Assembly (NCBI RefSeq): GCF_003991155.1
Contig: NZ_CP031293.1
DNA: 64,000 nucleotides
Origin: Escherichia coli
GTDB taxonomy: Bacteria; Pseudomonadota; Gammaproteobacteria; Enterobacterales; Enterobacteriaceae
Reading direction: 5' to 3' (one strand)
Shown piece by piece: positions 4,364 to 23,339 of the stretch. The notes below the pieces were generated by a model that was given only the letters and a program-made list of their open reading frames with translations, was not told the DNA's origin and searched no databases. The translations under genes and the position numbers were made by a program. How positions within the stretch are numbered: the stretch's first letter is position 1; each line of letters opens with the position of its first letter.

Positions 4364-4372
4364 AATCGCTCC

Positions 4373-5437: not shown

Positions 5438-5476
5438 TTTGGCTGTTCCTTAGTGCGTCAGGCGGTCAGTGTATCA

Positions 5477-6250
5477 TCACTCATACTCTGCCCGACACAT
5501 CGCCACTGTATCTTCTATCAGACGGCGCGCTACGGTGCCGGGCGGCGGGAGTAACGGCAAATCGTCATAGCGATACCAGTTCGCCTCAAGCAATTCTTTC
5601 GGGTCGATCACGATCTCGCCGCTGTCATATTCCGCCATAAACGCGGTCATTAAAGACTGAGGAAACGGCCACGGCTGGGAAGTCACGTAACGCAAGTTTT
5701 TAACTTTAATTCCGCTCTCTTCCATCACTTCCCGCGCGACAGCCTGCTCGAGGGTTTCGCCCACTTCGACGAATCCGGCAAGTACCGTATGGACACCGTT
5801 ACGATGGCTGGTATGCTGGGCGAGGAGGATCGAATCATCGCGACGGATGGCAACAATAATGCAGGGGGCGATTTGCGGGTAGTAACGCTCACGGCAATGG
5901 CTGCACAGCATCGCCCATTCGGTTTTACTTGGATACATTTCATGCCCGCAGTAACCACAGTATTTATGCGATCGGTAAAACTCTGCCAGTTGTACGCCTC
6001 GTCCGGCCAGTTGAAACAGCCCAACATCGAGATCAATGACCTGACGTACCGACCCCATATCGTGACGCCGCTGCTGTTGTACTAACCAAACAGGTTCCCC
6101 CTGCCATTCGCCGATTTGTAGTGCGCGCTGACCCACAAGATCGAAATTTGCCGCTTCGCCATATGGCAATTCTCCCTTCGGCAACCATAATTTTTGTTCA
6201 TGGCTGACGACCCACCAGCCGTGATCTAATTTTTCAATTATACGATCCAT
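5477..6250 (-). CDS. nudC: NADH pyrophosphatase (Nudix)
   Basis: 257-aa ORF with zinc-ribbon CGYCGHEM...CSHC and a Nudix box. Confidence 0.94.
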
Positions 6251-6344
6251 AGCTCTTGCACTACCTTTGCATCACTGGCATGTTTAACATGGTTTTTACA
6301 TTTCTCACTGAGCAGTTTTTGAATACAAACTTGCGGAGTCAATC

Positions 6345-6821
6345 ATGCTTAACCAGCTCGATAACCTGACGGAGCGCGTCAGAGGAAGTAACAAACTGGT
6401 TGATCGCTGGCTACATGTACGTAAGCATCTGCTCGTGGCTTACTACAATCTGGTTGGCATTAAGCCTGGCAAAGAATCGTACATGAGGCTAAACGAAAAA
6501 GCCCTTGATGATTTTTGTCAGAGCCTGGTCGATTACTTGTCTGCCGGACATTTCAGTATTTATGAGCGCATTCTTCATAAACTGGAAGGCAATGGGCAAC
6601 TCGCACGCGCCGCGAAGATTTGGCCACAACTCGAAGCCAATACCCAACAGATTATGGATTACTACGATTCCAGCCTGGAAACCGCTATCGATCATGATAA
6701 TTACCTTGAGTTTCAACAGGTTTTATCTGACATCGGCGAGGCGCTGGAAGCGCGCTTTGTGCTGGAAGATAAGCTGATTCTGCTGGTGCTTGACGCCGCC
6801 CGCGTCAAACATCCTGCTTGA
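6345..6821 (+). CDS. rsd: Regulator of sigma D (anti-sigma70)
   Basis: 158-aa ORF MLNQLDNLTERVRGSNKLVDRWLHVRKHLLVAYYNL. Confidence 0.95.
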   Translation: MLNQLDNLTERVRGSNKLVDRWLHVRKHLLVAYYNLVGIKPGKESYMRLNEKALDDFCQSLVDYLSAGHFSIYERILHKLEGNGQLARAAKIWPQLEANTQQIMDYYDSSLETAIDHDNYLEFQQVLSDIGEALEARFVLEDKLILLVLDAARVKHPA

Positions 6822-6854
6822 GTTCTGCGCTGTTAACGCGTAATTTACATTCAA

Positions 6855-6965
6855 CGCCCCGTTTGTGGGGCTAATTTCTTGTCGGAGTGCCTTAACTGGC
6901 TGAGACCGTTTATTCGGGATCCGCGGAACCTGATCAGGCTAATACCTGCGAAGGGAACAAGAGTT
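6855..6965 (+). promoter_or_regulatory. TPP riboswitch (thi-box) in the thiC leader
   Basis: Conserved thi-box elements GGGGCUA...CUGAGA...ACCUGAUC.GGCUAAUACC.GCGAAGGGAACAAG immediately upstream of thiC. Confidence 0.85.
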
Positions 6966-7050
6966 AATCTGCTATCGCATCGCCTTTGCGGCGATCGTCT
7001 CTTGCTTCATCCGTCGTCTGACAAGCCACGTCCTTAACTTTTTGGAATGA

Positions 7051-9576
<2,526 letters not shown>

Positions 9577-9584
<8 letters not shown>

Positions 9585-10332
9585 CCGTGACTTTATGCGT
9601 TATAGCCGCCAAATCCTGCTCGACGATATCGCTCTGGACGGGCAGCAAAAACTGCTCGACAGCCAGGTGCTGATTATTGGTCTTGGCGGGCTGGGTACAC
9701 CTGCTGCGCTATACCTGGCGGGGGCTGGCGTCGGGACGCTGGTACTGGCAGATGACGACGATGTGCATTTAAGCAATCTGCAACGACAAATCCTCTTTAC
9801 CACTGAAGATATCGATCGCCCGAAATCACAGGTCAGCCAACAGCGACTGACACAGTTGAATCCCGACATTCAACTGATGGCATTACAACAACGATTAACG
9901 GGTGAGACGTTAAAAGATGCGGTTGCACAAGCCGATGTGGTGCTCGACTGTACTGACAATATGGCGACTCGCCAGGAGATTAATGCCACCTGCGTGGCAC
10001 TCAACACGCCGCTTATCACCGCCAGCGCGGTCGGATTTGGCGGTCAGTTGATGGTACTGACGCCGCCCTGGGAGCAGGGGTGTTACCGCTGCCTGTGGCC
10101 AGATAACCAGGAGCCAGAACGCAACTGCCGCACGGCGGGCGTGGTTGGCCCGGTGGTCGGGGTTATGGGCACTTTACAGGCACTGGAAGCGATTAAGTTA
10201 TTAAGCGGTATAGAGACGCCTGCGGGAGAACTCCGACTGTTCGACGGTAAATCGAGCCAGTGGCGCAGCCTGGCTTTGCGCCGCGCCAGCGGTTGCCCGG
10301 TATGTGGAGGATGCAATGCAGATCCTGTTTAA
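9577..10332 (+). CDS. thiF: ThiS adenylyltransferase ThiF
   Basis: Start set at [15 protein letters not shown] inside the longer track ORF (9484..); E1-like GLGGLG nucleotide motif and C-terminal CPVCG; 251 aa. Confidence 0.93.
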
Positions 10333-10516
10333 CGATCAACCGATGCAGTGTGTCGCCGGACTAACTGTTCACGAACTGCTGGAGCAACTCGATCAACAAC
10401 AAGCAGGTGCGGCACTGGCGATTAATCAGCAAATCGTCCCGCGGGAACAATGGGCGCAACATATCGTGCAGGATGGCGACCAGATCCTGCTTTTTCAGGT
10501 TATTGCAGGGGGTTGA
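10316..10516 (+). CDS. thiS: Sulfur-carrier protein ThiS
   Basis: 66-aa MQILFNDQ...QVIAGG with C-terminal Gly-Gly; start trimmed from the track ORF. Confidence 0.92.
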
Positions 10517-10517
10517 G

Positions 10518-11288
10518 ATGTTACGTATTGCGGACAAAACGTTTGATTCACATCTGTTTACCGGCACAGGGAAATTCGCCTCTTCACAACTGATGATGGA
10601 GGCGATCCGCGCTTCCGGCAGCCAGCTGGTGACACTGGCGATGAAACGCGTCAACTTGCGCCAGCACAACGACGCTATCCTCGAACCGCTTATCGCGGCG
10701 GGTGTGACCCTGCTGCCAAATACATCCGGGGCGAAAACAGCGGAAGAAGCCATTTTCGCTGCCCATCTGGCTCGTGAAGCGTTAGGCACAAACTGGCTAA
10801 AATTAGAGATTCACCCTGACGCCCGCTGGCTGTTGCCCGATCCCATCGAAACCCTGAAAGCTGCCGAAACGCTGGTACAACAGGGATTTGTCGTGCTGCC
10901 TTACTGCGGGGCCGATCCGGTATTGTGTAAACGTATGGAAGAAGTCGGCTGTGCAGCGGTGATGCCGCTCGGCGCGCCGATTGGCTCGAATCAGGGACTG
11001 GAAACCCGTGCCATGCTGGAGATTATTATCCAGCAAGCCACGGTTCCGGTGGTTGTCGATGCTGGCATCGGCGTTCCCAGCCATGCCGCGCAGGCGCTGG
11101 AAATGGGGGCCGACGCGGTGTTAGTGAATACGGCGATTGCCGTCGCGGACGATCCCGTCAACATGGCGAAGGCATTTCGTCTGGCAGTAGAAGCAGGCCT
11201 GCTGGCACGTCAGTCCGGACCGGGCAGCCGCAGTCATTTTGCTCATGCCACCAGCCCGCTGACCGGATTTCTGGAGGCATCTGCATGA
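10518..11288 (+). CDS. thiG: Thiazole synthase ThiG
   Basis: 256-aa protein starting [20 protein letters not shown]; ATG 1 nt after the thiS stop. Confidence 0.95.
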
Positions 11289-12418
11289 AAACCTTCAGCG
11301 ATCGCTGGCGACAACTGGACTGGGACGACATCCGCCTGCGTATCAACGGCAAAACGGCTGCTGACGTAGAGCGGGCGCTAAATGCCTCGCAACTCACCCG
11401 CGACGACATGATGGCATTGCTATCACCCGCCGCCAGTGGCTATCTGGAACCACTGGCCCAGCGAGCGCAGCGTCTGACCCGTCAGCGATTTGGCAACACA
11501 GTTAGTTTCTACGTCCCGCTTTATCTTTCCAATCTTTGCGCTAACGACTGCACGTACTGCGGATTTTCCATGAGCAATCGCATCAAGCGCAAAACACTGG
11601 ATGAAGCGGATATTGCCAGGGAAAGCGCCGCTATACGGGAGATGGGCTTTGAACATCTGCTTTTAGTCACTGGTGAACATCAGGCGAAAGTGGGGATGGA
11701 TTACTTTCGTCGTCATCTCCCTGCCCTGCGTGAACAGTTCTCTTCACTACAGATGGAAGTGCAACCGCTGGCGGAGGCGGAATATGCCGAGCTAAAACAG
11801 CTGGGTCTCGATGGCGTGATGGTTTATCAGGAGACATATCACGAGGCGACTTATGCCCGCCATCATCTGAAAGGCAAAAAACAGGACTTCTTCTGGCGGC
11901 TGGAAACGCCGGATCGGCTGGGCCGTGCGGGGATTGATAAGATAGGCCTCGGCGCGCTAATTGGCCTTTCCGACAGCTGGCGCGTTGACTGCTATATGGT
12001 TGCAGAACATTTGCTATGGCTGCAACAGCATTACTGGCAAAGCCGCTACTCTGTCTCCTTCCCACGCCTGCGTCCATGTACTGGCGGCATTGAGCCTGCG
12101 TCGATTATGGATGAACGCCAGTTAGTGCAAACCATCTGCGCCTTCCGGCTGCTTGCACCGGAGATTGAACTGTCACTCTCCACGCGGGAATCACCGTGGT
12201 TTCGCGATCGCGTGATTCCGCTGGCAATTAATAACGTCAGCGCTTTTTCGAAAACGCAGCCAGGTGGCTATGCCGACAATCACCCCGAGCTGGAACAGTT
12301 CTCACCACACGACGATCGCAGGCCGGAAGCGGTTGCTGCCGCGTTAACCGCTCAGGGTTTGCAGCCGGTATGGAAAGACTGGGACAGCTATCTGGGACGC
12401 GCCTCGCAAAGGCCATGA
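11285..12418 (+). CDS. thiH: 2-iminoacetate synthase ThiH (radical SAM tyrosine lyase)
   Basis: 377-aa ORF with the radical-SAM motif [10 protein letters not shown]; overlaps the thiG stop (ATGA). Confidence 0.96.
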
Positions 12419-12530
12419 GACAGAATGTAAGAACGTAAATTTATTCCGAGCCGCTACGGAAGATGAAAAACGCAAGGTTGTTGAAAGCGTTGTGTTTTTT
12501 TATGGTAGTGCCGTCAGCAGGAATGTTGTC

Positions 12531-12563
12531 CAGGGCGAAAAGCTTCTTCCTCGTTTCGCCCTG
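12531..12563 (+). terminator. Stem-loop (10-bp stem) downstream of thiH; candidate terminator or island-boundary structure
   Basis: CAGGGCGAAA-13 nt-TTTCGCCCTG perfect inverted repeat followed by CCTTTCTT. Confidence 0.35.
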
Positions 12564-12735
12564 CCTTTCTTAAAATAACGTCTCAGTACGCTATTTCATG
12601 ATTGCCCGCAAAAATATTCATTAATATTTCTATTGTTTTAACAAAGAAGGCACAAGGCTTTAATTGCAAAGCAAGATCGCCGTCAAAACAAGAGTGTGCA
12701 ATAACCGGTTATAATAATTCCACCCTCACCAAAAT

Positions 12736-13386
12736 ATGGTCCAGAACATCATGTCAGCTTACCTAAAAAAAGCGTTATCGATTCATAGTGATGAATTTCG
12801 CCCATACGGAAACGTAATTTCTGCAATAAATGTAGATTCATTGCTTAAATACCTTAAAGAGGAAATTTCTGTACCTGAGGATCAGGTGGCATATGTCAGA
12901 AGCGATGAGCGCTTAAAGCAATACCCCGCCGTGAGCGACATTCAGCGCCAAATCTACGGTGGAATGCCCGTTCAGGCTGGGTACGTTTGTGGGGTAAATA
13001 CCACCCAGGATGGCTTTGAATATCACCAGGGAAGTGAAGTCATTATCGCCGCCAGCGATTTTTTCCTGTTTTTAGGTAAACGAGAGTTGATGCAGGGTGA
13101 CACGTTTAATGGTGAACGTGCAGAGCCGTTTTTCATTCCGGCAAAATCGGTGATTGAACTTTATAGCACAACGCTACATTACTGCCCTATGAGTATCAAT
13201 GCACAACCTTTTAGTGCAGCGATTATTCTTCTTGATGGAACTAATGAAGATATTGATGGCAAGAATAAACCAACAATATTAAGCAAGCGAAATACCTGGT
13301 TTATCGCCCATGAAAGTTTCACTGAGCATCCTTGCCCATTATTAAAAGGGCCGCATCTTTGCGTGAATGATATTATTCATGGGTGA
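12736..13386 (+). CDS. Cupin-like protein of unknown function (ureidoglycolate-lyase-like N-terminal motif; possibly DUF4867-type)
   Basis: 216-aa ORF with no K-12 counterpart at this locus; AT-rich codon usage; motif EFRPYGNVI resembles the AllA-family N-terminus; alternative start at MSAYLKK (12751). Confidence 0.6.
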   Translation: MVQNIMSAYLKKALSIHSDEFRPYGNVISAINVDSLLKYLKEEISVPEDQVAYVRSDERLKQYPAVSDIQRQIYGGMPVQAGYVCGVNTTQDGFEYHQGSEVIIAASDFFLFLGKRELMQGDTFNGERAEPFFIPAKSVIELYSTTLHYCPMSINAQPFSAAIILLDGTNEDIDGKNKPTILSKRNTWFIAHESFTEHPCPLLKGPHLCVNDIIHG

Positions 13387-13390
13387 AAAT

Positions 13391-13410
13391 GGCGAAGATT
13401 TCTCTTCGCC
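13391..13410. terminator. Shared hairpin between convergent island genes
   Basis: GGCGAAGA-TTTC-TCTTCGCC perfect stem-loop in the 30-bp gap between the cupin-like gene stop (13386) and the hydrolase-like gene stop (13417). Confidence 0.5.
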
Positions 13411-13416
13411 TGTTCT

Positions 13417-16071
13417 TTACCCGGCAATTACCGCCACGCTGTCTTTTGTTCGCACGCGTGGTGGCATGGTCAGACCGCAGCGATCCCACTCATTCCCCTG
13501 CCATGCACTCGCAAAATAATAATGATTCGCTGCCGATGGGTAGACCACGACCGCCAGTTCATTACGCTTTTTTAGTAAAGACTGTGGCAAGGTGAAACGA
13601 TATTCCGGCCAGCCCTTTTCGGCAATTAACGTATCGTTAAGCCAGATAGCAACGCTTCCCTGCACTTGCGGTAAATAAAGCTCAATATCGTCGGTAATCG
13701 TCTCCAGCGCAAAGCGTAACTGATAATGTCCCGGACCACACCACGTCTCCATCCCCTGCTGCTCCCACCCTTTTGTTACCTCAACGGGTCGGGAAACGTT
13801 ATCAACCAGCAGTTGCCAGTGCTTATCCAGCACCACCTCGTGGCGACTTTCCACTACCTGCAATGAAAAGCAACGGGCCTGCCAGGGCTCGATTTGTAGC
13901 GGATAACTTCCCGTGAGATGCTCTTCCAGCACTGAAACCTCTCCCGTTGCAAGATGCCACTCCGACAACTGCCCACTGAGGCCCGGAAAATGTAGCCAGC
14001 CGTAGAGCGGGGTATCTCCGTCGTTAAATACGCTGACGTAACGCGATGTTTCATCCTGGGTAATTCGCGTCCAGACGGCAGTTTTCCGGGAGGGATAGTC
14101 AACAAAGGGGTGATCGTTTTTCAGCGTGTCGGCTAACGTGCTGCACTGCGGTTGCGCCTCAATCAGTTTTTGCAGCCTTTCGGTGAGAGAACGATCTTCA
14201 CCTTTTTCCTCGCTATATGCCGCAAGCTCGCCGGCGATCAGAAGCTGGCCACCAGCGGCGACAAAGTGCTCCAGTTGGCTCAGCGTGGCGGCTGATTTCA
14301 CCACCTTAACGTCCGCTAACAGAAGCGCAGGGAAATTCATGCCGTTAATGCGCGTTCCATCAGCCTGGAGCAAATTCTCTTCATCAATAAAGAAATATTC
14401 AAATCCCTGAGCGCTGAGTTGTTTTGCCCAATATTCGCCTGACTGCCCTTCGTTGCCATCCACGCCACAGTGCCAGAAAGTCCGTTTGGGATAGAGTACG
14501 CCAACATCAACGTACGGCTCTCCCTGCTCAAGAAATTCGGCAAGGCGACCAGATTCCTGAGCAAACCCAGCGTGGAAGGCGTACCAGGGCTGGAAGTTAA
14601 CGCCCGGCGCAAAATCAAAACGCGGGTTACTTAATACGTCGTCATTTGCCTCGCCATCCGTCAGCCAGAACGCGTGCATCAAAAATTGCCGCGCACCGAG
14701 GAGGTGATGGCGCAATGCCTGCAACCGGATGTCATGCAGTGAAATTTCCCACTGCCCGGCAGCAAAATGTGTGCATGGCTTCACCCGCGCATAATATTGC
14801 TCAACAATGCACCCTTTACGCCCATGAGCGCGCGCCACAGAGTCGCCAACCTTCGCCGCCATCTGCGGCTCGCTATTTCGCGAATCGACAGCCGTAATAT
14901 CCCGCCAGCCATCGAGAGCAAAGTAATCCATAGCAAAATTACACCGGTTATCTTCGGTGATGATTTTACTGGCGAAATTCCAGCTACTAACGTGACCTAA
15001 TACTTCATGACCACTTAGCTGTATTCCCCGCTGGTGCGCCCATTCTGACAACGTACCAAAAAAGGCCTGCATCGCCTGGCTGGAATAACAGGAAAGCAGC
15101 TCACAGCGCCGACGTGCGGTACGACTGCCAATGTCCATAACTAACGACATCAGGTTTTCTGCCAGGCAGTAAGGTGCCTGTTGCAATGCATCAACAAACC
15201 TTTTTTCATACATTAAGGAGGATTTGACCGCGCCAGTATGTTCATTCCATTGCCAGAAACAGGCGTGTGGCTGGTCGAAAAAGAGATACGCCACCGTCTT
15301 ACCAAAATGATCGCCAAAAGCGCGGGCGTAAGGTTCATAGCCGACACGAATAAAATTTTCTGCCGCTTCGGGCATCAGGTAATTAATCATCCGTGAGGTC
15401 AAGCAACGCGCCGCGGCAAAGAGCGTCACTACCGTTTCCGCACCCCAGGGCAGGTCGCTTCCCGTAAAGGTGACCTCAAATTCCTCTGTGGTTGCTTTGG
15501 TGATGCGGGCCAATGAAGAAACATCAACAATTTCATCTGCATTGCACTCCCCTGATGAAGAGGTGGCATACGCTGCGACAATTTCCCATTCATCCCACGC
15601 CGGTTTACCGCCAGCAAAAATCCACTCCATTCCACACTGCTGTAGCGCCTGCGCATCCGCAGAGCGGATCCCGGAAAGGTGACATGTCAGTACATCTGCA
15701 GACCGGCTGGACTGGCTCCAGAAAAGATGGCGCTCACGCAGCTCATCTCTCCCTTCAACGGTCCTTCCCCCGGCGTGCCCGGAAAGCCAGTTGTAATCAT
15801 CGTAGATGCCCATCATCAGCCCAATATTGGCAGCTTTATCAGCCGTGTAGCGACAGGCTGCCAGCCACTCCTCACTGAGATAACTCTCCAGCGGAAGACT
15901 CAGACGTGCGGCTATCTGAAATGAACCATACCCTCCCGCCTGCAGTTGCCTCAGTTGGCTGTCGATCTGCTTTTTGTCCGGAATGGTATGCCAGAACCAG
16001 TAGGTTGCAGGCAGGTGCCATACATCAGGATTTTTAAAGTTTTGGCGTGCCTGTGCTAACGAATCATTCAT
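13417..16071 (-). CDS. Large cytoplasmic hydrolase-like protein (putative glycoside hydrolase, family unassigned)
   Basis: Track ORF 13417..16104; start chosen at MNDSLAQARQ (ATG at 16071) because of the AGGGGGAAAGCC RBS 6 nt upstream; 884 aa; no signal peptide; C-terminal region looks beta-sandwich/carbohydrate-binding-like; no K-12 homolog recalled. Confidence 0.75.
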   Translation of the reverse strand: MNDSLAQARQNFKNPDVWHLPATYWFWHTIPDKKQIDSQLRQLQAGGYGSFQIAARLSLPLESYLSEEWLAACRYTADKAANIGLMMGIYDDYNWLSGHAGGRTVEGRDELRERHLFWSQSSRSADVLTCHLSGIRSADAQALQQCGMEWIFAGGKPAWDEWEIVAAYATSSSGECNADEIVDVSSLARITKATTEEFEVTFTGSDLPWGAETVVTLFAAARCLTSRMINYLMPEAAENFIRVGYEPYARAFGDHFGKTVAYLFFDQPHACFWQWNEHTGAVKSSLMYEKRFVDALQQAPYCLAENLMSLVMDIGSRTARRRCELLSCYSSQAMQAFFGTLSEWAHQRGIQLSGHEVLGHVSSWNFASKIITEDNRCNFAMDYFALDGWRDITAVDSRNSEPQMAAKVGDSVARAHGRKGCIVEQYYARVKPCTHFAAGQWEISLHDIRLQALRHHLLGARQFLMHAFWLTDGEANDDVLSNPRFDFAPGVNFQPWYAFHAGFAQESGRLAEFLEQGEPYVDVGVLYPKRTFWHCGVDGNEGQSGEYWAKQLSAQGFEYFFIDEENLLQADGTRINGMNFPALLLADVKVVKSAATLSQLEHFVAAGGQLLIAGELAAYSEEKGEDRSLTERLQKLIEAQPQCSTLADTLKNDHPFVDYPSRKTAVWTRITQDETSRYVSVFNDGDTPLYGWLHFPGLSGQLSEWHLATGEVSVLEEHLTGSYPLQIEPWQARCFSLQVVESRHEVVLDKHWQLLVDNVSRPVEVTKGWEQQGMETWCGPGHYQLRFALETITDDIELYLPQVQGSVAIWLNDTLIAEKGWPEYRFTLPQSLLKKRNELAVVVYPSAANHYYFASAWQGNEWDRCGLTMPPRVRTKDSVAVIAG

Positions 16072-17563
16072 GGCTTTCCCCCTTCTTAATCGGCGGAACA
16101 TCACAATGACAAATGTATGTCAAAATGGCATACAGCGCCGCGCCCACCAGCATCGCCACCACTACGCCAATATTTGCTGTCGCAAACACGCTGGTTTTGG
16201 TTTCTGCCGTCAGTAAGAAGCCGACCAGGTGAGCAATCCACGGATCGCCTGAGGTGATGGTTCCCATGCCGATAACCGATGCAACAAACAGCGATAATAA
16301 TGCCGTCCAGCGACCGTTACGCCCGCCAAGCCCCGCGGGCTGCGCCATATCAGTGTTCCAGTGCAAGCGTTTTTGCCGGGCAAAGTCGACAAGCTGGATT
16401 GCGCCCATCGATCCCAATACGACGGATACCGTTGCCAGAAAAGACTGAAAGGTTGCGAGGAACGAGTCAGAAACAAACAATAAGTAGAAGGCACCGAATG
16501 CGATAATGACCGCATTGATAGCAGTGGTGGTTGAACGACTGGCTGGAACGCCCATTGCCAGCAATGCGAGGCCTGAGCTGTAAACACCTGTAATGGCTGC
16601 CGCCAGCAGGGAGATGATGATCACGATTGAAAACGGCACATAGAACCAAAACGGCAGGAACGAGGTTAAGGCCGCAATCGGTTCGGACGCTGCTGCTCCG
16701 CTCAGTTCCGGGTTACTGTCGGCCAGCAGGGCACCTAAAATCAGCAGGATGGAAACCGGAAGCGAAATCCCAAGCGACGTCCAGAAAATCACTTTCCCGG
16801 CAGCGGTTTTGCGCGGCAGGTAACGGGCGAAATCACCGCCATAGTTGAGAAAGCCCAGCCCAACCATCGTCATTGCCATCACCATGCCGCCGATAAACGT
16901 TAAAAATCCGGCATCGGGAGCAGCACCCGCCTGCGACCAGTGAATATGTGGCAGGATCAGGATAATAAAGATGATGCTCATTCCGCCCGTTAACCATGCA
17001 ATATACTTTTCTACCTTCATGATGAGCTGGTGGCCGTAGATGGCAACGGACATAGTCAATACTAAGGTCACCACGAACCAGCCCAACAGGCACCCTAAGG
17101 TAGGGTGACCGTTTTCTGCTGCAAATACGGTTGGCCATAACCGGGCAAAGAGGGCGGCGCCAGTGGTCGAGGACAACGTAATAATGGTGATTTTCCAGCC
17201 CATATTGGAAATATAGGCAAATAAAGTGGGGATCTTATTCCCATGATAACCAAAGGCAAATCGGGTCTGCGTTAAGGTAGGCAGCCCGGTGCGTGGCCCA
17301 CCAACGGCCAGAACCCCCACCAGCGTGCTGGATAAAAAATAGCCCACGACACCGGCAACAATCGCCTGCCAGAGGCTTAACCCCAGTGAGTAAACATAAA
17401 TCCCATAGGTAATACCGAGGATGGATACATTCCATGAAAACCAGATCGGGAAAAGTCCGGCAGGCGAACCATAACGTTCGTTATCACTAACCGGGTTTAC
17501 CCCATTGGTTTCCACCTTCATCGTACCTGAAACATCAGATGGGTTCTGGGCTTGGCTCGTCAT
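16064..17563 (-). CDS. NCS1-family (nucleobase/nucleoside/vitamin:cation symporter) permease
   Basis: Start set at MTSQAQNPSD after a GAGAGGAAAT RBS within the longer track ORF; about 499 aa, highly hydrophobic with multiple predicted TM helices; resembles purine-cytosine/allantoin/hydantoin permeases. Confidence 0.8.
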   Translation of the reverse strand: MTSQAQNPSDVSGTMKVETNGVNPVSDNERYGSPAGLFPIWFSWNVSILGITYGIYVYSLGLSLWQAIVAGVVGYFLSSTLVGVLAVGGPRTGLPTLTQTRFAFGYHGNKIPTLFAYISNMGWKITIITLSSTTGAALFARLWPTVFAAENGHPTLGCLLGWFVVTLVLTMSVAIYGHQLIMKVEKYIAWLTGGMSIIFIILILPHIHWSQAGAAPDAGFLTFIGGMVMAMTMVGLGFLNYGGDFARYLPRKTAAGKVIFWTSLGISLPVSILLILGALLADSNPELSGAAASEPIAALTSFLPFWFYVPFSIVIIISLLAAAITGVYSSGLALLAMGVPASRSTTTAINAVIIAFGAFYLLFVSDSFLATFQSFLATVSVVLGSMGAIQLVDFARQKRLHWNTDMAQPAGLGGRNGRWTALLSLFVASVIGMGTITSGDPWIAHLVGFLLTAETKTSVFATANIGVVVAMLVGAALYAILTYICHCDVPPIKKGESHE

Positions 17564-17564
17564 T

Positions 17565-18782
17565 TTATTTCCTCTCATATTGAGCAAGACGTGATAGTAC
17601 GGCTTCATACTCAGGCATGTTCGATGCGCCTTCCCGCTCGACCGCCAGAGAAGCAAACGCAGAGGCAAATTTTGCTGCACTGAGCAACGGCTGGCCCTGC
17701 GCAATCGCCGCAGCAAACGCACCGTTAAACGCATCCCCCGCACCGGTGGTGTCAATACTTACTGCTTTTAACGCTGGAATATGGGTAAATTGTTCACCGT
17801 CATAAATCAGCGCCCCTTGAGAACCCATCGTAATAATGATGTTTTTTGCCCCCAGGGATTTTATGGTTTGCGCCGCTTCTTTCGCACTCTCGATATCATT
17901 AATCTCGACACCGGACATCAGCGACGCTTCTGTTTCATTCGGTGTCAGATAATCAACATATTGCAGGCATTCTTTTGCCTGGTCAGAATAAGGGGCTGGG
18001 TTAAGGATAGTTTTCACGCCCGACCGATGTGCCATATTTAGTGCCAGCGTGGTTGCTTCAAAGTTATTTTCCAACTGTGTCAAAAATATTTTGGCGTCCG
18101 TCAACTCACCCGCAATACTGGCAACTTCCGCTTCAGTGATATATTGATTGGCGCCAGAATAAATCGCGATCTTGTTTTCACCAGCAGGCTCCGAAACATA
18201 TATTATGGCGCTTCCTGTTTTATGCTCTTCGTCCTGGTAGAGGGTAAAGCTGCGGATATCGGATGAAGAGAGATGATCATGCGCCATCTGGCCGAAATGG
18301 TCGTTGCCAACTTTGCCGACGAAGTGTACCTGGACGGGACATTTGCTGGCTGCCATCGCCTGGTTTGCGCCCTTGCCGCCAGGTCCAATGATGGTATTGC
18401 TGGCAAGAATTGATTCGCCGCTTTTAGGGAAGCGATCAACTTTGGCAATAATATCGACATTAAAAGATCCTAATATACAAACTTTGCTTATCATTATTTT
18501 CCCTTTTTTGTTTGTCATCGAGTTTTTTCGCCAGTTGACCTGATTGAGGAACTTTTCAATAGAGGTACCAACGTTATTAACGGGCTGAGAATGGAAAATC
18601 CGACGCAATATTATTGCTCCGCCGTGACAACGCTCAACACCCCCTTGCTCCGCTAATAAATTTAAATCATTACGGATCGTTTCTTTACTGACAGAGAATA
18701 AGATGGCGAGTTGATTAACCGTAGCCCGCTCATGTTTATTCAAATATGCCAATATTTGACGTTGTCTTTCTTTCCCAAACAT
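17565..18782 (-). CDS. DeoR-type HTH domain fused to a ribokinase/PfkB-family carbohydrate kinase domain
   Basis: 405-aa ORF; N-terminal about 60 aa ERQRQILAYLNKHERATVNQLAILFSVSKETIRNDLNLLAEQGGVERCHGGAI is a DeoR-family HTH; C-terminal about 305 aa carries PfkB motifs GPGGKGANQA and DTTGAGDAFNGAF; GAGGTG RBS; stop 1 nt before the permease ATG. Confidence 0.8.
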   Translation of the reverse strand: MFGKERQRQILAYLNKHERATVNQLAILFSVSKETIRNDLNLLAEQGGVERCHGGAIILRRIFHSQPVNNVGTSIEKFLNQVNWRKNSMTNKKGKIMISKVCILGSFNVDIIAKVDRFPKSGESILASNTIIGPGGKGANQAMAASKCPVQVHFVGKVGNDHFGQMAHDHLSSSDIRSFTLYQDEEHKTGSAIIYVSEPAGENKIAIYSGANQYITEAEVASIAGELTDAKIFLTQLENNFEATTLALNMAHRSGVKTILNPAPYSDQAKECLQYVDYLTPNETEASLMSGVEINDIESAKEAAQTIKSLGAKNIIITMGSQGALIYDGEQFTHIPALKAVSIDTTGAGDAFNGAFAAAIAQGQPLLSAAKFASAFASLAVEREGASNMPEYEAVLSRLAQYERK

Positions 18783-18987
18783 GATTTCACCTCACGTAAC
18801 ATTTATATCTTTTGTAATTTTCTGATTCCATGAATCCTTTCACACTACCATCACGAAAACAAAAACAAACGGGAATTTTTGGAGGAAAGGTTTTTTTATT
18901 CAATGGGATAGTGAGAGGGGAATGTTGTTTTGAAAAAACACTCCCGAAAAATGCGTGGGAAAGCGCTTTCAATCGTAAACGGAATGC

Positions 18988-19019
18988 AAAAAAAAGCCAG
19001 TCAGTGTGACCTGACTGGC
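18988..19019 (-). terminator. rpoC rho-independent terminator
   Basis: GCCAGTCAG-GTCACA-CTGACTGGC hairpin followed by a T8 run on the minus strand, 20 nt downstream of the rpoC stop. Confidence 0.85.
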
Positions 19020-19039
19020 TTATTTCTTAAGAAGAGCGA

Positions 19040-22000
19040 TTACTCGTTATCAGAACCGCCCAGACCTGCGTTCAGCAGTTCTGCCAGGCTGGCAGATGCG
19101 TCTTCTGCAGTCACCTGCGGTGCAGCCGGAGCTTCACCCGCAGCACGGCGACGCATACGATCCTGGTGGTACGCGTAACCGGTACCTGCCGGGATCAGAC
19201 GACCCACGATAACGTTCTCTTTCAGGCCGCGCAGTTCGTCGCGTTTGCCCGCAACGGCTGCTTCGGTCAGCACGCGAGTGGTCTCCTGGAACGATGCCGC
19301 GGAGATGAAGGACTCGGTTGCCAGAGACGCTTTGGTGATACCCAGCAGATCGCGGGAGTAAGTTGCACCCACTTTGCCGTTCGCTTCCAGTTCGCGGTTT
19401 GCGATCTTGACGCGAGAGTATTCAACCTGTTCACCTTCCAGGAAGTCGGAGCTGCCCGCGTTAACGATGGTAGCTTTACGCAGCATCTGACGAACGATAA
19501 CTTCGATGTGTTTATCGTTAATCTTAACGCCCTGCAGACGGTATACGTCCTGTACTTCGTTAACGATGTAACGAGTCACAGCATGAACACCACGCAGACG
19601 CAGAATGTCGTGCGGCGCTTCCGGACCGTCGGAAATTACGTCACCACGTTCTACACGTTCACCTTCGAACACGTTGAGTTGACGCCATTTCGGAATCATC
19701 TCTTCGTACGGATCGCTACCGTCTACCGGGGTGATAACCAGACGACGTTTACCTTTGGTTTCTTTACCGAAGGAAACGATACCGCTGATTTCAGCCAGGA
19801 TTGCCGGCTCTTTCGGACGACGTGCTTCGAACAGGTCCGCAACGCGCGGCAGACCACCGGTGATGTCCTTGGTACCGCCGGATTCCTGCGGAATACGCGC
19901 CAGGGTGTCACCAGAGCTGATCTGTACGCCATCTTCCAGCTGAACAATCGCTTTACCCGGCAGGAAGTACTGCGCAGGCATATCGGTACCCGGGATCAGA
20001 ACATCGTTACCCTGAGCATCAACGATTTTCAGCGCCGGACGCAGATCTTTACCACCTGCGGTACGTTCTGCGGAATCCAGAACCACCAGCGAAGACAGAC
20101 CGGTCAATTCGTCGGTCTGACGAGTAATGGTCTGGCCGTCGATCATGTCAGTAAAGCGTACAAAACCGCTTACTTCGGTGATAACCGGCATGGTGTGCGG
20201 GTCCCAGTTTGCAACGGTTTCGCCGCCAGCAACCTGTTCGCCATCGCCTTTCGCCAGTACCGCACCGTAAGGTACTTTGTAGCTTTCTTTGGTACGACCG
20301 AATTCGTCGATCAGTTTCAGTTCGGTGTTACGGGAAGTGATAACCAGTTTACCGCTGGAGTTCACAACCGACTTCACGTTGCTGAGCTTGATGCTACCTT
20401 TGTTTTTCACCTGGATGCTGGATTCAGCAGCCGCACGAGATGCCGCACCACCGATGTGGAACGTACGCATGGTCAGCTGTGTACCCGGTTCACCGATGGA
20501 CTGTGCCGCGATAACACCGATTGCTTCACCTTTGTTGATGAGGTGGCCACGCGCCAGGTCACGACCGTAGCAGTGCGCACATACACCAAAGTCGGTGTCA
20601 CAAGATACAACAGAACGTACTTTAACCGCGTCGACAGAGTTCTCTTCCAGCAGGTCACACCACTGTTCGTGCAGCAGCGTGTTGCGCGGAACGAGGATAT
20701 CAGCAGTACCCGGCTTCAGAACGTCTTCAGCAGTTACACGACCCAATACGCGATCGCGCAGCGGCTCTTTAACGTCACCACCCTCGATAACCGGAGTCAT
20801 CATGATACCTTCATGGGTACCACAATCGTCTTCGGTAACCACCAGGTCCTGCGCCACGTCAACCAGACGACGAGTCAGGTAACCGGAGTTCGCAGTTTTC
20901 AGTGCGGTATCCGCCAGACCTTTACGAGCACCGTGGGTGGAGATGAAGTACTGGAGTACGTTCAGACCTTCACGGAAGTTCGCGGTGATTGGCGTTTCGA
21001 TGATGGAGCCATCCGGCTTCGCCATCAGACCACGCATACCAGCAAGCTGACGAATCTGTGCCGCAGAACCACGCGCACCGGAGTCGGCCATCATGTAGAT
21101 GCTGTTGAAGGAAACCTGCTTCTCTTCCTGACCGTCACGGTTAATAACGGTTTCAGTTTGCAGGTTATCCATCATCGCTTTGGATACACGATCGTTCGCC
21201 GCAGCCCAGATATCGATAACTTTGTTGTAGCGTTCGCCCGCAGTTACCAGACCAGACTGGAACTGCTCCTGAATTTCAGCAACTTCTGCTTCTGCCTCGG
21301 AGATGATTTCGTGTTTCTTCTCCGGGATGACCATGTCATCGATACCAACAGATGCACCAGAACGCGCTGCATAGGCGAAGCCGGTGTACATGATCTGGTC
21401 CGCAAAAATAACGGTCGGTTTCAGACCGAGAATGCGGTAGCAGGTGTTCAGCATTTTGGAGATTGCTTTCTTACCCAGCGCCTGGTTGACGATGGAGTAA
21501 GGCAGACCTTTCGGTACAATCATCCACAGAATGGCACGGCCAACGGTCGTATCTTTCAGGCTGGTTTTCGCTACTAATTCACCGTTAGCATCTTTTTCAT
21601 ACTCGGTGATACGCACTTTAACGCGCGCATGCAGAGAAGCCAGACCAGAGCGATACAGACGTTCTGCTTCTTTCGGGCCAGTCAGCACCATGCCTTCGCC
21701 TTTGGCGTTAACACAGTCGCGGGTCATGTAGTACAGACCCAGTACAACGTCCTGAGACGGAACGATGATTGGTTCGCCGTTCGCCGGGGACAGGATGTTG
21801 TTGGTAGACATCATCAGCGCACGCGCTTCCAGCTGGGCTTCCAGCGTCAGCGGTACGTGAACAGCCATCTGGTCACCATCGAAGTCGGCGTTATATGCCG
21901 CACAAACCAGCGGGTGCAGCTGGATAGCTTTACCTTCGATCAGTACCGGTTCAAATGCCTGGATACCCAGACGGTGCAGAGTCGGTGCACGGTTCAGCAG

Positions 22001-23263
22001 TACCGGGTGTTCGCGGATAACTTCGTCCAGGATATCCCAAACGACAGCTTCTTCGCGCTCAACCATTTTCTTCGCAGCTTTAATGGTGGTAGCAAGACCA
22101 CGCAGTTCCAGCTTGCCGTAGATGAACGGTTTGAACAGTTCCAGTGCCATTTTCTTCGGCAGACCGCACTGATGCAGACGCAGGTATGGACCTACGGTGA
22201 TTACAGAACGACCGGAGTAGTCAACACGCTTACCGAGCAGGTTCTGACGGAAACGACCCTGTTTACCTTTGATCATGTCGGCCAAAGATTTCAGAGGACG
22301 CTTGTTAGAACCAGTGATCGCACGACCGCGACGACCGTTATCCAGCAGGGCGTCTACCGCTTCCTGCAGCATACGTTTTTCGTTACGTACGATGATATCT
22401 GGCGCAGCCAGATCCAGCAGACGTTTCAGACGGTTGTTACGGTTAATGACGCGACGATACAGATCGTTCAGGTCAGAAGTCGCGAAACGACCACCATCCA
22501 GCGGAACCAGCGGACGCAGATCTGGCGGCAGTACCGGCAGAACGGTCAGGATCATCCACTCTGGTTTGTTACCAGACTGAACGAACGCTTCCAGCAGTTT
22601 GATACGCTTGGTCAGCTTTTTACGCTTGGTTTCGGAGTTGGTTTCGTTCAGCTCTTCACGCAGCTGTTCGCACTCTTGCTCCAGATCCATGCTCTTCAGC
22701 AGGGCCTGGATTGCTTCCGCACCCATCTTCGCGTCGAATTCGTCACCGAACTCTTCCAGCGCGTCCAGATACTGCTCTTCAGTCAGGATCTGCTGACGCT
22801 CCAGGTTGGTCATACCGCCTTCGATAACCACATAGGATTCGAAGTACAGTACGCGTTCGATATCGCGCAGCGGCATATCGAGCAGCAGGCCGATACGGGA
22901 CGGCAGCGATTTCAGGAACCAGATGTGCGCAGTCGGGGAAGCCAGTTCGATGTGGCCCATACGCTCACGGCGTACTTTAGTCTGGGTCACTTCAACACCG
23001 CACTTCTCACAGATGACGCCACGGTGTTTCAGGCGCTTGTACTTACCGCACAGGCACTCGTAATCTTTTACCGGCCCAAAGATACGGGCGCAGAAAAGGC
23101 CGTCACGTTCTGGTTTGAACGTACGGTAGTTGATGGTTTCCGGCTTTTTAACTTCACCGAAAGACCATGAACGGATCATGTCTGGCGAAGCCAGAGCAAT
23201 TTTGATCGCATCAAACTCTTCGGTTTTAGTCTGCGCTTTCAGAAACTTTAATAAATCTTTCAC
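19040..23263 (-). CDS. rpoC: RNA polymerase beta' subunit
   Basis: 1407-aa [36 protein letters not shown]...; NADFDGD catalytic motif. Confidence 0.99.
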
Positions 23264-23339
23264 GGATTTGCTCCCGTCGGAGTTAGCACAATCCGCTGCC
23301 GGGTTTTACCCCGACAGCAGTGACCTGTTTGAGCGAGAA

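What the first reader, a model, noticed from the sequence alone, without database searches (positions are those of the whole stretch)
13417..16071. 884-aa cytoplasmic hydrolase-like protein of unassigned family as the distal gene of the island operon
This is a large protein with no signal peptide and no obvious match to the common E. coli glycosidases I can recall. Its C-terminal region has the look of a beta-sandwich carbohydrate-binding module. It is translationally coupled to the NCS1 permease, implying it acts on the imported substrate inside the cell. The family call is weak and the function is unknown.
Basis: inference. Interest (0 to 1): 0.5.

Follow-up and report, generated by a model that had tools for sequence, protein, structure and literature searches.

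The report
Divergent GH106-like glycosidase in riboside operon
The 884-residue protein is a real, conserved, cytoplasmic enzyme from a deep, unstudied branch of the GH106 (alpha-L-rhamnosidase) glycosidase superfamily; it is always encoded beside a nucleobase-type permease and usually a ribokinase, so it most likely cleaves the sugar (probably ribose) off a small imported glycoside, not a polysaccharide.

Summary
The ORF is real. It lies on the minus strand (ATG 16071, stop 13419-13417, 884 aa) and overlaps the stop of the NCS1 permease gene by 8 nt. It is intact and under purifying selection (dN/dS about 0.1) in Escherichia, Salmonella and Superficieibacter.

RefSeq calls it "hypothetical protein". 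Pfam and NCBIfam give nothing significant. Profile and structure comparisons, however, place it in the GH106 superfamily:
- AlphaFold model, pLDDT 90.6.
- An HMM of Ram106B-type GH106 proteins hits it at E 5e-109.

The five metal/base positions of GH106 are all conserved. Two positions differ: the Ram106B "DEP" glutamate is glutamine, and the BT0986 catalytic acid Glu461 position is histidine ("DQPH").

In 62 genomes of four phyla, an NCS1 permease lies immediately upstream in 41. Ribokinase-like PfkB kinases (32), RbsD/FucU-family genes (13) and isochorismatase-like amidohydrolases (15) recur nearby. No rhamnose catabolic genes do.

Best reading: an import-cleave-phosphorylate module for a small heterocycle glycoside that yields ribose. 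The substrate is unknown. This is a new variant of a known kind, of moderate interest.

The parts
13417..16071 (-). Gene X: 884-aa cytoplasmic GH106-superfamily glycosidase-like protein (WP_001000014.1), stop codon included
14557..16071 (-). X residues 1-~505: (beta/alpha)8 catalytic barrel with a beta-rich insertion (residues ~114-223) after strand 3
   Evidence: Secondary-structure order in the AF2 model. N-terminal match to GH106. Most invariant residues of the family lie here.
15265..15276 (-). D266-Q267-P268-H269 ('DQPH') motif at the end of barrel strand 4. It corresponds to BT0986 D458-S459-W460-E461 and to Ram106B-type D-E-P-x.
   Evidence: Translation. Alignments. Column counts: D 45/45, Q 44/45, P 45/45, H 44/45. 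Residue roles in BT0986/Ram106B from PMC6828813.
14800..14802 (-). Glu424 (in CIVEQYY), equivalent of the GH106 catalytic base / metal ligand Glu593 of BT0986
   Evidence: Invariant 45/45. Role from PMC6828813.
14884..15009 (-). His355 (GHE; nt 15009-15007) and Asp396 (nt 14886-14884), equivalents of BT0986 metal ligands Glu538 and Glu561. These positions are His and Asp in the Ram106B type.
   Evidence: hhalign and hmmsearch alignments. Both invariant. PMC6828813.
14137..14529 (-). X residues ~515-645: alpha/beta domain of the GH42M (beta-galactosidase trimerisation) type
   Evidence: AF2 secondary structure. Weak Glyco_hydro_42M hits in family members. GH42 enzymes are the next-best structural matches.
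13420..14109 (-). X residues ~655-884: two beta-sandwich domains. The last (~750-884) is of the GH2 sugar-binding / galactose-binding-like type.
   Evidence: AF2 model. Profile matches to the C-terminal domains of 6q2f/5mqm and to GH2_N domains.
16064..17563 (-). NCS1 (purine-cytosine permease family) transporter, 499 aa. Its stop overlaps the X start (ATGAATGA).
   Evidence: TIGR00800 E 3e-25. Pfam PF02133 on the Salmonella orthologue. RefSeq annotation. Translation. Immediately upstream of X in 41/62 genomes.
17565..18782 (-). DeoR-type HTH fused to a ribokinase (405 aa), first gene of the operon
   Evidence: TIGR02152 ribokinase 313.5 bits, above the curated cut-off of 299.65; HTH matches at residues 1-75. 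RefSeq rbsK. Same architecture as RikA/STM3547, which has proven ribose kinase activity. Sequence.
12751..13386 (+). DUF4867 cupin protein (211 aa), convergent with X. Part of the island in Escherichia and Salmonella only.
   Evidence: RefSeq annotation. Pfam PF16161 on the Salmonella orthologue. Family has no assigned function; proposed sugar mutarotase/ring isomerase (PMC11968277).
13391..13410 (.). GC-rich hairpin (GGCGAAGA-TTTC-TCTTCGCC) between the convergent DUF4867 and X genes; candidate bidirectional terminator
   Evidence: Pattern scan only. Not evidence of function.
18783..19021 (-). rpoC terminator hairpin (19021-18994) followed by an AT-rich intergenic region (GC about 0.41) that should hold the island promoter/operator
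   Evidence: Terminator-like site. Sequence. GC profile. No promoter mapped.

Best explanation
Gene X encodes a cytoplasmic, probably divalent-metal-dependent exo-glycosidase. It belongs to a deep, uncharacterised branch of the GH106 superfamily, nearest the Ram106B type. It is the cleavage step of a three-gene 'import - cleave - phosphorylate' module.

Proposed pathway: the NCS1 permease brings in a small glycoside whose aglycone is nucleobase- or pyridine-like. X hydrolyses the glycosidic bond at a conserved Asp266/Gln267/His355/Asp396/Glu424 centre. Glu424 would act as base, and His269 sits where classical GH106 has its acid. The released sugar, most likely D-ribose, is phosphorylated by the HTH-ribokinase, whose DeoR domain probably regulates the operon.

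Shown: homology, fold, conservation of the catalytic-centre positions, gene overlap, conserved synteny, and a kinase that scores as ribokinase.
Inferred: hydrolytic activity, metal dependence, the roles of Gln267 and His269, the class of substrate, and ribose as product.

For: 2. Catalytic centre. All five BT0986 metal/base positions map to invariant residues of X.

3. A real, selected gene: dN/dS about 0.1.

4. Context. NCS1 lies immediately upstream on the same strand in 41/62 genomes of Gammaproteobacteria, Actinobacteria and Bacillota. PfkB occurs in 32, an RbsD/FucU-family gene immediately downstream in 13, isochorismatase-like in 15, and ADP-ribosylglycohydrolase in 5.

5. Kinases. Every associated PfkB tested best-matches the ribokinase model; the E. 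coli one is above the curated cut-off. RikA, with the same HTH-PfkB architecture, is a proven ribose kinase.

6. Motif tracks context. DQPH + GHEV goes with NCS1. DQP[GA] + GHEI goes with rhizobial loci. D[HE]PY + GHEL goes with ABC/LacI loci.

7. Precedent. Ram106B enzymes are signal-peptide-free and metal-dependent (Co/Ni/Mn-activated, killed by EDTA).
Against: - No member of this branch has been assayed.
- All characterised GH106 enzymes are alpha-L-rhamnosidases.
- The carboxylate that Ram106B proteins keep invariant (DEP) is Gln here, and the BT0986 acid position is His. Normal glycosidase chemistry is therefore not guaranteed.
- A multi-domain 884-aa enzyme is unusual for a small riboside, and known nucleoside hydrolases have other folds.
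- Succinivibrionaceae loci have NCS1-X but no kinase within 8 kb. Rhizobial loci have neither NCS1 nor PfkB.
- The RbsD/FucU genes score closer to FucU than to RbsD.
- I could not inspect model coordinates, so the geometry of Gln267 and His269 is untested.
Confidence: 0.5

Rival explanations
1. X is an ordinary alpha-L-rhamnosidase, like every characterised GH106 enzyme. It would remove rhamnose from a small rhamnoside (for example a plant flavonoid or another natural-product rhamnoside), and the adjacent kinase and permease would serve another purpose.
For: The only structural and sequence relatives with known function are alpha-L-rhamnosidases. Some UniProt relatives are named 'alpha-L-rhamnosidase-like'. 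E. coli carries rhamnose catabolic genes elsewhere (my own knowledge).
Against: The Ram106B DEP glutamate and the BT0986 acid glutamate are both replaced. Clustering and tblastn of 62 neighbourhoods turned up no recurrent rhamnose isomerase, kinase, aldolase or mutarotase. What recurs is ribokinase-like PfkB, RbsD/FucU-family genes and NCS1. NCS1 carriers are known for nucleobases, hydantoins, vitamins and nucleosides, not rhamnosides (family knowledge). Identity to GH106 structures is only 13-18%.
Confidence: 0.15
2. Kinase-first pathway. The PfkB enzyme phosphorylates the imported riboside at its 5'-OH, as pseudouridine kinase or aminoimidazole riboside kinase do. X then cleaves the 5'-phosphoriboside and releases ribose-5-phosphate plus the base, which is the PsuK/PsuG logic.
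For: PfkB family members include nucleoside and riboside kinases, and weaker hits to pseudouridine and nucleoside kinase models were seen. The authors of the RikA study warn that ribose kinase activity may be off-target. Gene order is kinase-permease-X.
Against: The E. coli kinase passes the curated equivalog cut-off for ribokinase (313.5 vs 299.65 bits). Nucleoside-kinase models score far lower. The RbsD/FucU-family genes downstream of X in 13 Actinobacteria loci act on free sugars. NCS1-X pairs exist without any kinase nearby.
Confidence: 0.15
3. X is not a hydrolase. It would be a glycoside phosphorylase, a transglycosylase, or another catalyst (for example a lyase or isomerase) that reuses the GH106 metal site. 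The Glu-to-Gln and Glu-to-His changes would mark a change of chemistry.
Against: There is no positive evidence for a phosphate site or an acceptor site. The nearest relatives by a wide margin are hydrolases. The context with a free-sugar kinase and a mutarotase/pyranase-family gene fits release of a free sugar.
Confidence: 0.07
4. X is a catalytically dead relic, or a binding or regulatory protein retained in the island.
For: Loss of the canonical acid residues. A few relatives appear fragmented, for example two half-length ORFs in Streptomyces violaceusniger L053 and truncated Bifidobacterium pullorum proteins.
Against: Seventy invariant columns cluster in the barrel across 45 sequences at 37-89% identity. 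dN/dS is about 0.1. All metal/base positions are invariant. Operon coupling with a transporter is conserved across phyla.
Confidence: 0.03

Closest known systems
Ram106B-type GH106 alpha-L-rhamnosidases (Thermotoga maritima/neapolitana, Caldicellulosiruptor bescii, Thermoclostridium stercorarium; PMC6828813)
   Same: - Colinear homology over about 800 columns (hhalign E 7e-106; HMM 371 bits).
- No signal peptide.
- Same domain order: barrel, alpha/beta domain, beta-sandwiches.
- Same pattern at the active centre, Asp, His, Asp and base Glu (D266, H355, D396, E424), which differs from BT0986.
- Probably the same dependence on a divalent metal.
   Different: - Only about 21% identity.
- The invariant Glu of 'DEP' is Gln ('DQP'), followed by a conserved His.
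- The Pfam GH106 model does not detect X.
- Genomic context is NCS1 plus ribokinase, not sugar ABC transporters or rhamnose genes.
- Substrate unknown.
Classical GH106 alpha-L-rhamnosidases BT0986 (PDB 5MQM/5MWK) and RHA-P (PDB 6Q2F)
   Different: 13-18% identity. These enzymes are about 200 residues longer and are secreted or periplasmic enzymes of pectin or flavonoid degradation. Their Ca2+ ligands Ser459, Glu538 and Glu561 and their acid Glu461 are Gln, His, Asp and His in X.
Riboside-salvage operons built on transporter + hydrolase + PfkB kinase (E. coli yegTUV; Bifidobacterium RbsR-controlled rbsK-rihC-transporter regulons, PMC4746261; Bacteroides ribose-utilisation systems, bioRxiv 574913)
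   Same: Same logic: import a ribose-containing small molecule, split it, and phosphorylate ribose. A LacI or DeoR regulator, a ribokinase-like kinase and a dedicated transporter are clustered. In Bacillota, X even sits with an ADP-ribosylglycohydrolase-family gene, as in yegTUV-type clusters.
   Different: The cleaving enzyme in those systems belongs to the IU-nucleoside-hydrolase or ADP-ribosylglycohydrolase families. Here it is a GH106-fold protein. The transporter is NCS1, not MFS, NupC or ABC.
RikA (STM3547) of Salmonella Typhimurium, a DeoR-HTH::PfkB ribose kinase (PMC13432705)
   Same: Concerns the neighbouring gene, not X. Same 404/405-aa architecture of N-terminal DeoR HTH plus ribokinase domain. 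There is an internal Met near residue 90 (Met89/Met97 here), which may give a shorter kinase-only product.
   Different: A different locus and different neighbours (STM3548-3550: amidotransferase-like, DMT transporter, phosphotriesterase-like). Sequence identity to the island kinase was not measured.

Membership tests
GH106 (CAZy) / Pfam PF17132 Glyco_hydro_106 | Match to the Pfam family model at a significant score | tested here: not met
   The only hit is E 0.026, 13.4 bits, residues 19-120. Only 3 of 45 family members reach E <= 0.001. dbCAN/CAZy models could not be run.
GH106 (CAZy) / Pfam PF17132 Glyco_hydro_106 | Significant sequence relationship to characterised or bona fide GH106 proteins | tested here: met
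   Family profile against 6q2f gives E 1.4e-23 and against 5mqm E 2.3e-16. hhalign against Pfam-positive Ram106B-like proteins gives E 7e-106. Their HMM against X gives E 5e-109.
GH106 (CAZy) / Pfam PF17132 Glyco_hydro_106 | N-terminal (beta/alpha)8 catalytic barrel followed by alpha/beta and beta-sandwich domains | tested here: met
GH106 (CAZy) / Pfam PF17132 Glyco_hydro_106 | Catalytic base glutamate (BT0986 Glu593) | tested here: met
   Aligns to Glu424, invariant in 45/45. Role from PMC6828813.
GH106 (CAZy) / Pfam PF17132 Glyco_hydro_106 | Catalytic acid glutamate (BT0986 Glu461) | tested here: not met
   The position aligns to His269, which is His in 44/45. Ram106B enzymes also lack a residue matching Glu461.
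GH106 (CAZy) / Pfam PF17132 Glyco_hydro_106 | Active-site divalent metal ligands (BT0986 D458, S459, E538, E561, E593) | tested here: inconclusive
   All five positions are occupied by invariant or near-invariant potential ligands: D266, Q267, H355, D396, E424. Metal binding itself and the geometry could not be tested.
GH106 (CAZy) / Pfam PF17132 Glyco_hydro_106 | alpha-L-rhamnosidase activity | not testable with these tools
   Needs an enzyme assay. The genomic context argues against it but does not exclude it.
Ram106B subgroup of GH106 | Asp-Glu ('DEP') at the end of strand 4, plus His and Asp replacing BT0986 E538 and E561 | tested here: not met
   His and Asp are present (H355, D396), but the Glu is Gln. 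DQP occurs in 44/45 aligned members. Among larger sets, DQPH occurs 117 times in X-like proteins, against DEP in 49/58 GH106-like proteins.
IU-type nucleoside hydrolases (considered because of the riboside hypothesis) | Nucleoside-hydrolase fold and N-terminal DXDXXXDD Ca2+ motif | tested here: not met
   No Pfam or NCBIfam hit. Structural neighbours are TIM-barrel glycosidases only. Any resemblance would be functional, not familial.
Import-cleave-phosphorylate riboside utilisation module | Dedicated transporter and ribokinase co-transcribed with the cleaving enzyme | tested here: met
   Overlapping or abutting genes kinase-NCS1-X. NCS1 upstream in 41/62 loci and PfkB in 32/62. The kinase is above the ribokinase equivalog cut-off.
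Import-cleave-phosphorylate riboside utilisation module | The cleaving enzyme releases ribose from the imported compound | not testable with these tools
   Inference from context only.

The most novel reading that the evidence does not exclude
The NCS1-linked 'DQPH' clade would be a previously unrecognised class of riboside (nucleoside-like) hydrolase built on the GH106 rhamnosidase scaffold. A metal-assisted glycosidase would have lost its carboxylic general acid. That loss would be tolerable if the leaving group is an N-heterocycle that is already activated (for example a pyridinium, as in nicotinamide/nicotinate riboside) or is protonated by His269.

The enzyme might accept the ribose in pyranose form. 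A beta-D-ribopyranoside has the same configuration as an alpha-L-rhamnopyranoside at C1-C3. This would explain the RbsD/FucU-family (pyranase/mutarotase) gene downstream of X in Actinobacteria, and perhaps the DUF4867 cupin in enterics. It would define a widespread pathway, in gut and soil bacteria, for an as yet unidentified ribosylated heterocycle.
Probability: 0.25. Interest if true: 0.7.

Novelty: new variant of a known kind. Interest (0 to 1): 0.5.

Why it matters
The annotation gap covers about 60 clusters at 50% identity. They are spread over Enterobacterales (including ExPEC E. coli IAI39 and CE10, and Salmonella), Succinivibrionaceae, Bifidobacterium, Streptomyces, Rhizobium and Bacillota.

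If the protein cleaves a small heterocycle glycoside, three things follow. GH106 would extend beyond rhamnosidases. A substrate class would be assigned to an orphan NCS1 transporter subfamily. And a nutrient or salvage niche would be identified that distinguishes the roughly 1% of E. coli carrying the island in place of htrC.

The Glu-to-Gln and Glu-to-His swaps give clean mutational tests of how Ram106B-type enzymes, whose catalytic acid is still unknown, work. If the protein turns out to be a plain rhamnosidase, the finding is a routine annotation fix.

Tried and rejected
- Single-sequence searches found nothing: NCBIfam, phmmer against PDB sequences and PADLOC defence models. Pfam gave only a sub-threshold N-terminal GH106 hit.
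- Literature searches found no study of this protein or clade. Terms tried included the family, 'purine-cytosine permease + ribokinase + glycoside hydrolase', ribosidase terms and yegU/STM4067. A Salmonella host-specificity paper that mentions ribokinase proved irrelevant.
- I first took DUF4867 to be the sulfoquinovose isomerase. Reading PMC11968277 showed the family has no assigned function (metal cupin, proposed mutarotase/ring isomerase), and I corrected this.
- Neighbour analysis by naive ORF calling was unreliable in high-GC loci, giving shadow ORFs and fused ORFs such as 'X+1433'. I replaced it with tblastn of family references. Some PfkB/LacI calls that overlap on opposite strands remain ambiguous, so the PfkB count (32/62) is approximate.
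- phmmer of the permease against PDB sequences found nothing, so there is no substrate clue from that route.
- The isochorismatase-like neighbour could not be narrowed down. It hits cysteine hydrolases, N-carbamoylsarcosine amidase, nicotinamidase and biuret hydrolase about equally.
- Cluster-member names for the Ram106B-like set were uninformative.
- A link to thiamine metabolism was considered, because the island adjoins thiCEFSGH and the permease weakly matches CytX. I set it aside: the adjacency exists only in enterics, where the island replaces htrC at a variable site, and homologues elsewhere are not near thi genes.
- The diagnostic 'beta-D-ribosidase' activity of Enterobacteriaceae was considered. 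From my own knowledge it is widespread, so a gene present in 0.9% of E. coli genomes is unlikely to explain it.
Full report
**1. The observation**

The stated interval translates to nonsense on the plus strand. The minus strand carries one uninterrupted ORF, 16104-13417. From the ATG at 16071 it gives exactly 884 residues. That ATG is preceded by AAGAAGGGGGAAAGCC.

RefSeq annotates the same CDS in 49 complete E. coli genomes as WP_001000014.1, "hypothetical protein". The start overlaps the stop of the upstream permease gene as ATGAATGA. The permease ATG follows the stop of the first gene by one base. So X is the last gene of a compact three-gene operon on the minus strand:
- a DeoR-HTH::ribokinase, 18782-17565;
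- an NCS1 permease, 17563-16064;
- X, 16071-13417.

A DUF4867 gene (12751-13386, plus strand) converges on X. A GC-rich hairpin lies between the two.

The four genes lie between thiH and the rpoC terminator. In 5420 of 5426 genomes the flanks match. Only 49 genomes carry the island; the genomes listed for the rest carry htrC/yjaZ at this site.

The gene is intact and starts at the same ATG in E. coli, E. whittamii, another Escherichia species, Salmonella enterica and Superficieibacter. dN/dS is 0.09-0.12.

**2. What the protein is**

Single-sequence tools fail:
- NCBIfam finds no family.
- Pfam gives only a sub-threshold match of residues 19-120 to the start of Glyco_hydro_106 (E 0.026).
- phmmer against all PDB sequences finds nothing.

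The protein does have many full-length relatives at 35-47% identity. They occur in Streptomyces and other Actinobacteria, Bifidobacterium, Succinivibrionaceae, Rhizobium and Bacillota. Nearly all are named hypothetical, "glycoside hydrolase" or "carbohydrate-binding protein".

An alignment of 45 of them (A1) has 70 invariant columns, concentrated in the first 500 residues. Its profile hits the two solved GH106 alpha-L-rhamnosidases: RHA-P 6Q2F (E 1.4e-23) and BT0986 5MQM/5MWK (E 2e-16). The matches are colinear at the N-terminus and over the C-terminal half.

An AlphaFold model built on A1 is confident (pLDDT 90.6, pTM 0.82). It shows four parts:
- a (beta/alpha)8 barrel with a beta-rich insertion (residues 1-~505);
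- an alpha/beta domain (~515-645);
- two beta-sandwiches (~655-884).

**3. Position within GH106**

The more distant hits of the exhaustive search (25-30% identity, about 1000 aa) were aligned as A2. Of these, 37 of 43 match Pfam GH106. A1 and A2 align over 801 columns with probability 100% and E 7e-106. An HMM of A2 scores X at 371 bits.

Baudrexl et al. (PMC6828813) describe a "Ram106B" type of GH106. These enzymes are cytoplasmic, activated by Co/Ni/Mn and sensitive to EDTA. Relative to BT0986:
- the base Glu593 and the ligand Asp458 are kept;
- Ser459 becomes Glu;
- Glu538 becomes His;
- Glu561 becomes Asp;
- no residue matches the acid Glu461.

A2 shows exactly this pattern: TDEP, GH, GxD and a conserved Glu. 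The BT0986 numbering could be read directly because 5MWK is the E461Q mutant.

| BT0986 | Ram106B type | X | Conservation in A1 |
|---|---|---|---|
| Asp458 | Asp | Asp266 | 45/45 |
| Ser459 | Glu | Gln267 | 44/45 |
| Glu461 (acid) | variable | His269 | 44/45 |
| Glu538 | His | His355 | 45/45 |
| Glu561 | Asp | Asp396 | 45/45 |
| Glu593 (base) | Glu | Glu424 | 45/45 |

In larger sets, DQPH occurs in 117 X-like proteins, with a minor D-H-P variant. DEP occurs in 49 of 58 GH106-like proteins.

X is therefore a third, deep branch of the GH106 superfamily. Its metal/base centre is complete, but both candidate acid carboxylates are replaced.

**4. Genomic context**

I recovered 62 loci from one genome per species and located reference families by tblastn. 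Naive ORF calling was unreliable in high-GC DNA.

- An NCS1 permease lies immediately upstream on the same strand in 41 of 62 loci. These include Escherichia, Superficieibacter, Succinivibrionaceae, Bifidobacterium, many Actinobacteria and Bacillota.
- A PfkB kinase is present in 32 loci. Every one tested scores best against the ribokinase model. The E. coli kinase scores 313.5 bits against a cut-off of 299.65. Actinobacterial kinases score 230-248 bits and Bacillota kinases 112-120 bits.
- An RbsD/FucU-family gene follows X directly in 13 Actinobacteria loci.
- Bacillota loci read NCS1 - X - isochorismatase-like amidohydrolase - ADP-ribosylglycohydrolase-family - PfkB.
- Rhizobial loci differ. 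X follows a two-subunit molybdenum hydroxylase: a [2Fe-2S] subunit plus a Mo subunit fused to cytochrome c. This is the architecture described for nicotinate hydroxylase NicAB. X precedes a GH63/trehalase-like protein, a PotABCD-like ABC transporter and an isochorismatase-like gene.
- No rhamnose catabolic gene recurs in any of these neighbourhoods.

The active-site motif tracks context. DQPH with GHEV goes with NCS1. DQP[G/A] with GHEI goes with the rhizobial loci. D[H/E]PY with GHEL goes with ABC/LacI loci. His269 is therefore specific to the NCS1-linked clade that contains the E. coli protein.

**5. The neighbouring kinase**

The island kinase is a 405-aa fusion of a DeoR HTH and a ribokinase domain. 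Salmonella RikA (STM3547) has the same 404-aa architecture. It was shown in 2026 to be a genuine ribose kinase, translated mainly from Met90 (PMC13432705). The island protein has Met89 and Met97 just before its kinase domain. RikA sits in a different locus, and its authors caution that ribose may not be its physiological substrate.

**6. Mechanism proposed**

The conserved gene pair, the overlap of reading frames, the free-sugar kinase and the mutarotase/pyranase-family neighbours fit an import-cleave-phosphorylate module. In this module:
- NCS1 brings in a small glycoside with a nucleobase- or pyridine-like aglycone;
- X cleaves it in the cytoplasm at a divalent-metal centre, with Glu424 as base;
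- ribose is phosphorylated.

Three kinds of neighbouring genes point to an N-heterocyclic aglycone: amidohydrolases of the isochorismatase family, a NicAB-like hydroxylase, and ADP-ribosylglycohydrolase-family genes. They do not identify it.

Loss of the carboxylic acid would be tolerable in two cases. The leaving group could be intrinsically good, such as a pyridinium. Or it could be protonated by His269. This step is inference.

A further inference follows from standard carbohydrate stereochemistry. In the 1C4 chair, a beta-D-ribopyranoside has the same configuration as an alpha-L-rhamnopyranoside at C1, C2 and C3. It differs at C4 and lacks the methyl group. A rhamnosidase-type -1 subsite could thus have been retuned to ribopyranose. 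This would rationalise the RbsD/FucU-family gene downstream.

DUF4867 in the enteric island is a metal cupin of unknown function. It has been proposed to be a sugar mutarotase/ring isomerase (PMC11968277). It might play a comparable role, but this is untested.

**7. Rivals**

- A plain alpha-L-rhamnosidase remains possible (0.15). The altered motif and the context disfavour it.
- A kinase-first, PsuK/PsuG-like route, with X cleaving a 5'-phosphoriboside, cannot be excluded (0.15).
- A change of chemistry to phosphorylase or transferase (0.07) has little support.
- A dead protein (0.03) has little support.

**8. Novelty and score**

No member of the clade has been characterised, and no paper in the searchable library mentions it. 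It is a new variant of a known kind: the fold and superfamily are known, while the catalytic signature and the genomic logic are new for GH106.

Interest is moderate (0.5). A specialist would not be surprised by another divergent glycosidase. A GH106-fold enzyme tied across four phyla to a nucleobase-type permease and a ribokinase is unexpected, and it is directly testable. The gene occurs in about 1% of complete E. coli genomes, among them the strains IAI39 and CE10, where it replaces htrC.

Noticed in passing
window 12419-19040: The four-gene island (DUF4867, X, NCS1 permease, HTH-ribokinase) occupies the slot between thiH and the rpoC terminator. In the genomes listed without the island, htrC/yjaZ sits there. 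Only 49 of 5426 complete E. coli genomes carry the island, yet the same site holds it in Salmonella, E. whittamii and Superficieibacter.
   Followed up: partly
L006 10885-16458; hit H27 (NZ_OY754389.1): The rpoC-thiH slot is a variable site with further alleles. In an enterobacterial metagenome contig, kinase-NCS1-X is followed not by DUF4867 but by a PTS IIA/IIB/IIC, GH4, GntR and SIS-domain cluster. At least one E. coli genome has a SIS-domain gene next to thiH.
   Followed up: no
window 17565-18782 (minus strand): The first island gene is a DeoR-HTH::ribokinase fusion of 405 aa with internal Met89/Met97 just before the kinase domain. This is the same layout as Salmonella RikA (STM3547), which is made mainly from Met90. 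The gene might give both a regulator-kinase and a kinase-only product.
   Followed up: partly
window 12751-13386 (plus strand): A DUF4867 metal-cupin gene converges on X. It sits at the downstream end of X, where Actinobacteria carry an RbsD/FucU-family gene. The family has no proven function; it is related to ureidoglycolate lyase and has been proposed to be a sugar ring isomerase.
   Followed up: partly
L045, L047, L049, L054, L059, L062 (about 3900-17600): In Rhizobium and Neorhizobium the X homologue (motif DQP[G/A], no His269) lies between a NicAB-like Mo hydroxylase (with fused cytochrome c) and a GH63/trehalase-like protein. A PotABCD-like ABC transporter and an isochorismatase-like gene follow. 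This looks like a catabolic cluster for a glycosylated N-heterocycle.
   Followed up: partly
L024, L027, L029, L031, L050: Bacillota and Sulfobacillus loci read NCS1 - X - isochorismatase-like - ADP-ribosylglycohydrolase-family (closest to MJ1187, PDB 1T5J) - PfkB. The transporter/ADP-ribosylglycohydrolase/PfkB trio recalls the uncharacterised E. coli yegTUV operon.
   Followed up: partly
L053 8001-10681; L072; proteins P0049, P0074: A few relatives look broken or truncated. There are two half-length ORFs in Streptomyces violaceusniger and 661-793-aa versions in Bifidobacterium pullorum. These could be local pseudogenisation or assembly errors. Close homologues of the E. coli gene are intact.
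   Followed up: no
window 19166-21577, 21629-23170, 23130-26318 (plus strand): Long ORFs of 513-1062 aa lie antisense to rpoC and rpoB. They are almost certainly shadow ORFs of these highly constrained genes.
   Followed up: no
window about 6870-6975: By transfer from the RefSeq annotation of the identical region, a TPP riboswitch precedes thiC. It was not checked against Rfam here.
   Followed up: no
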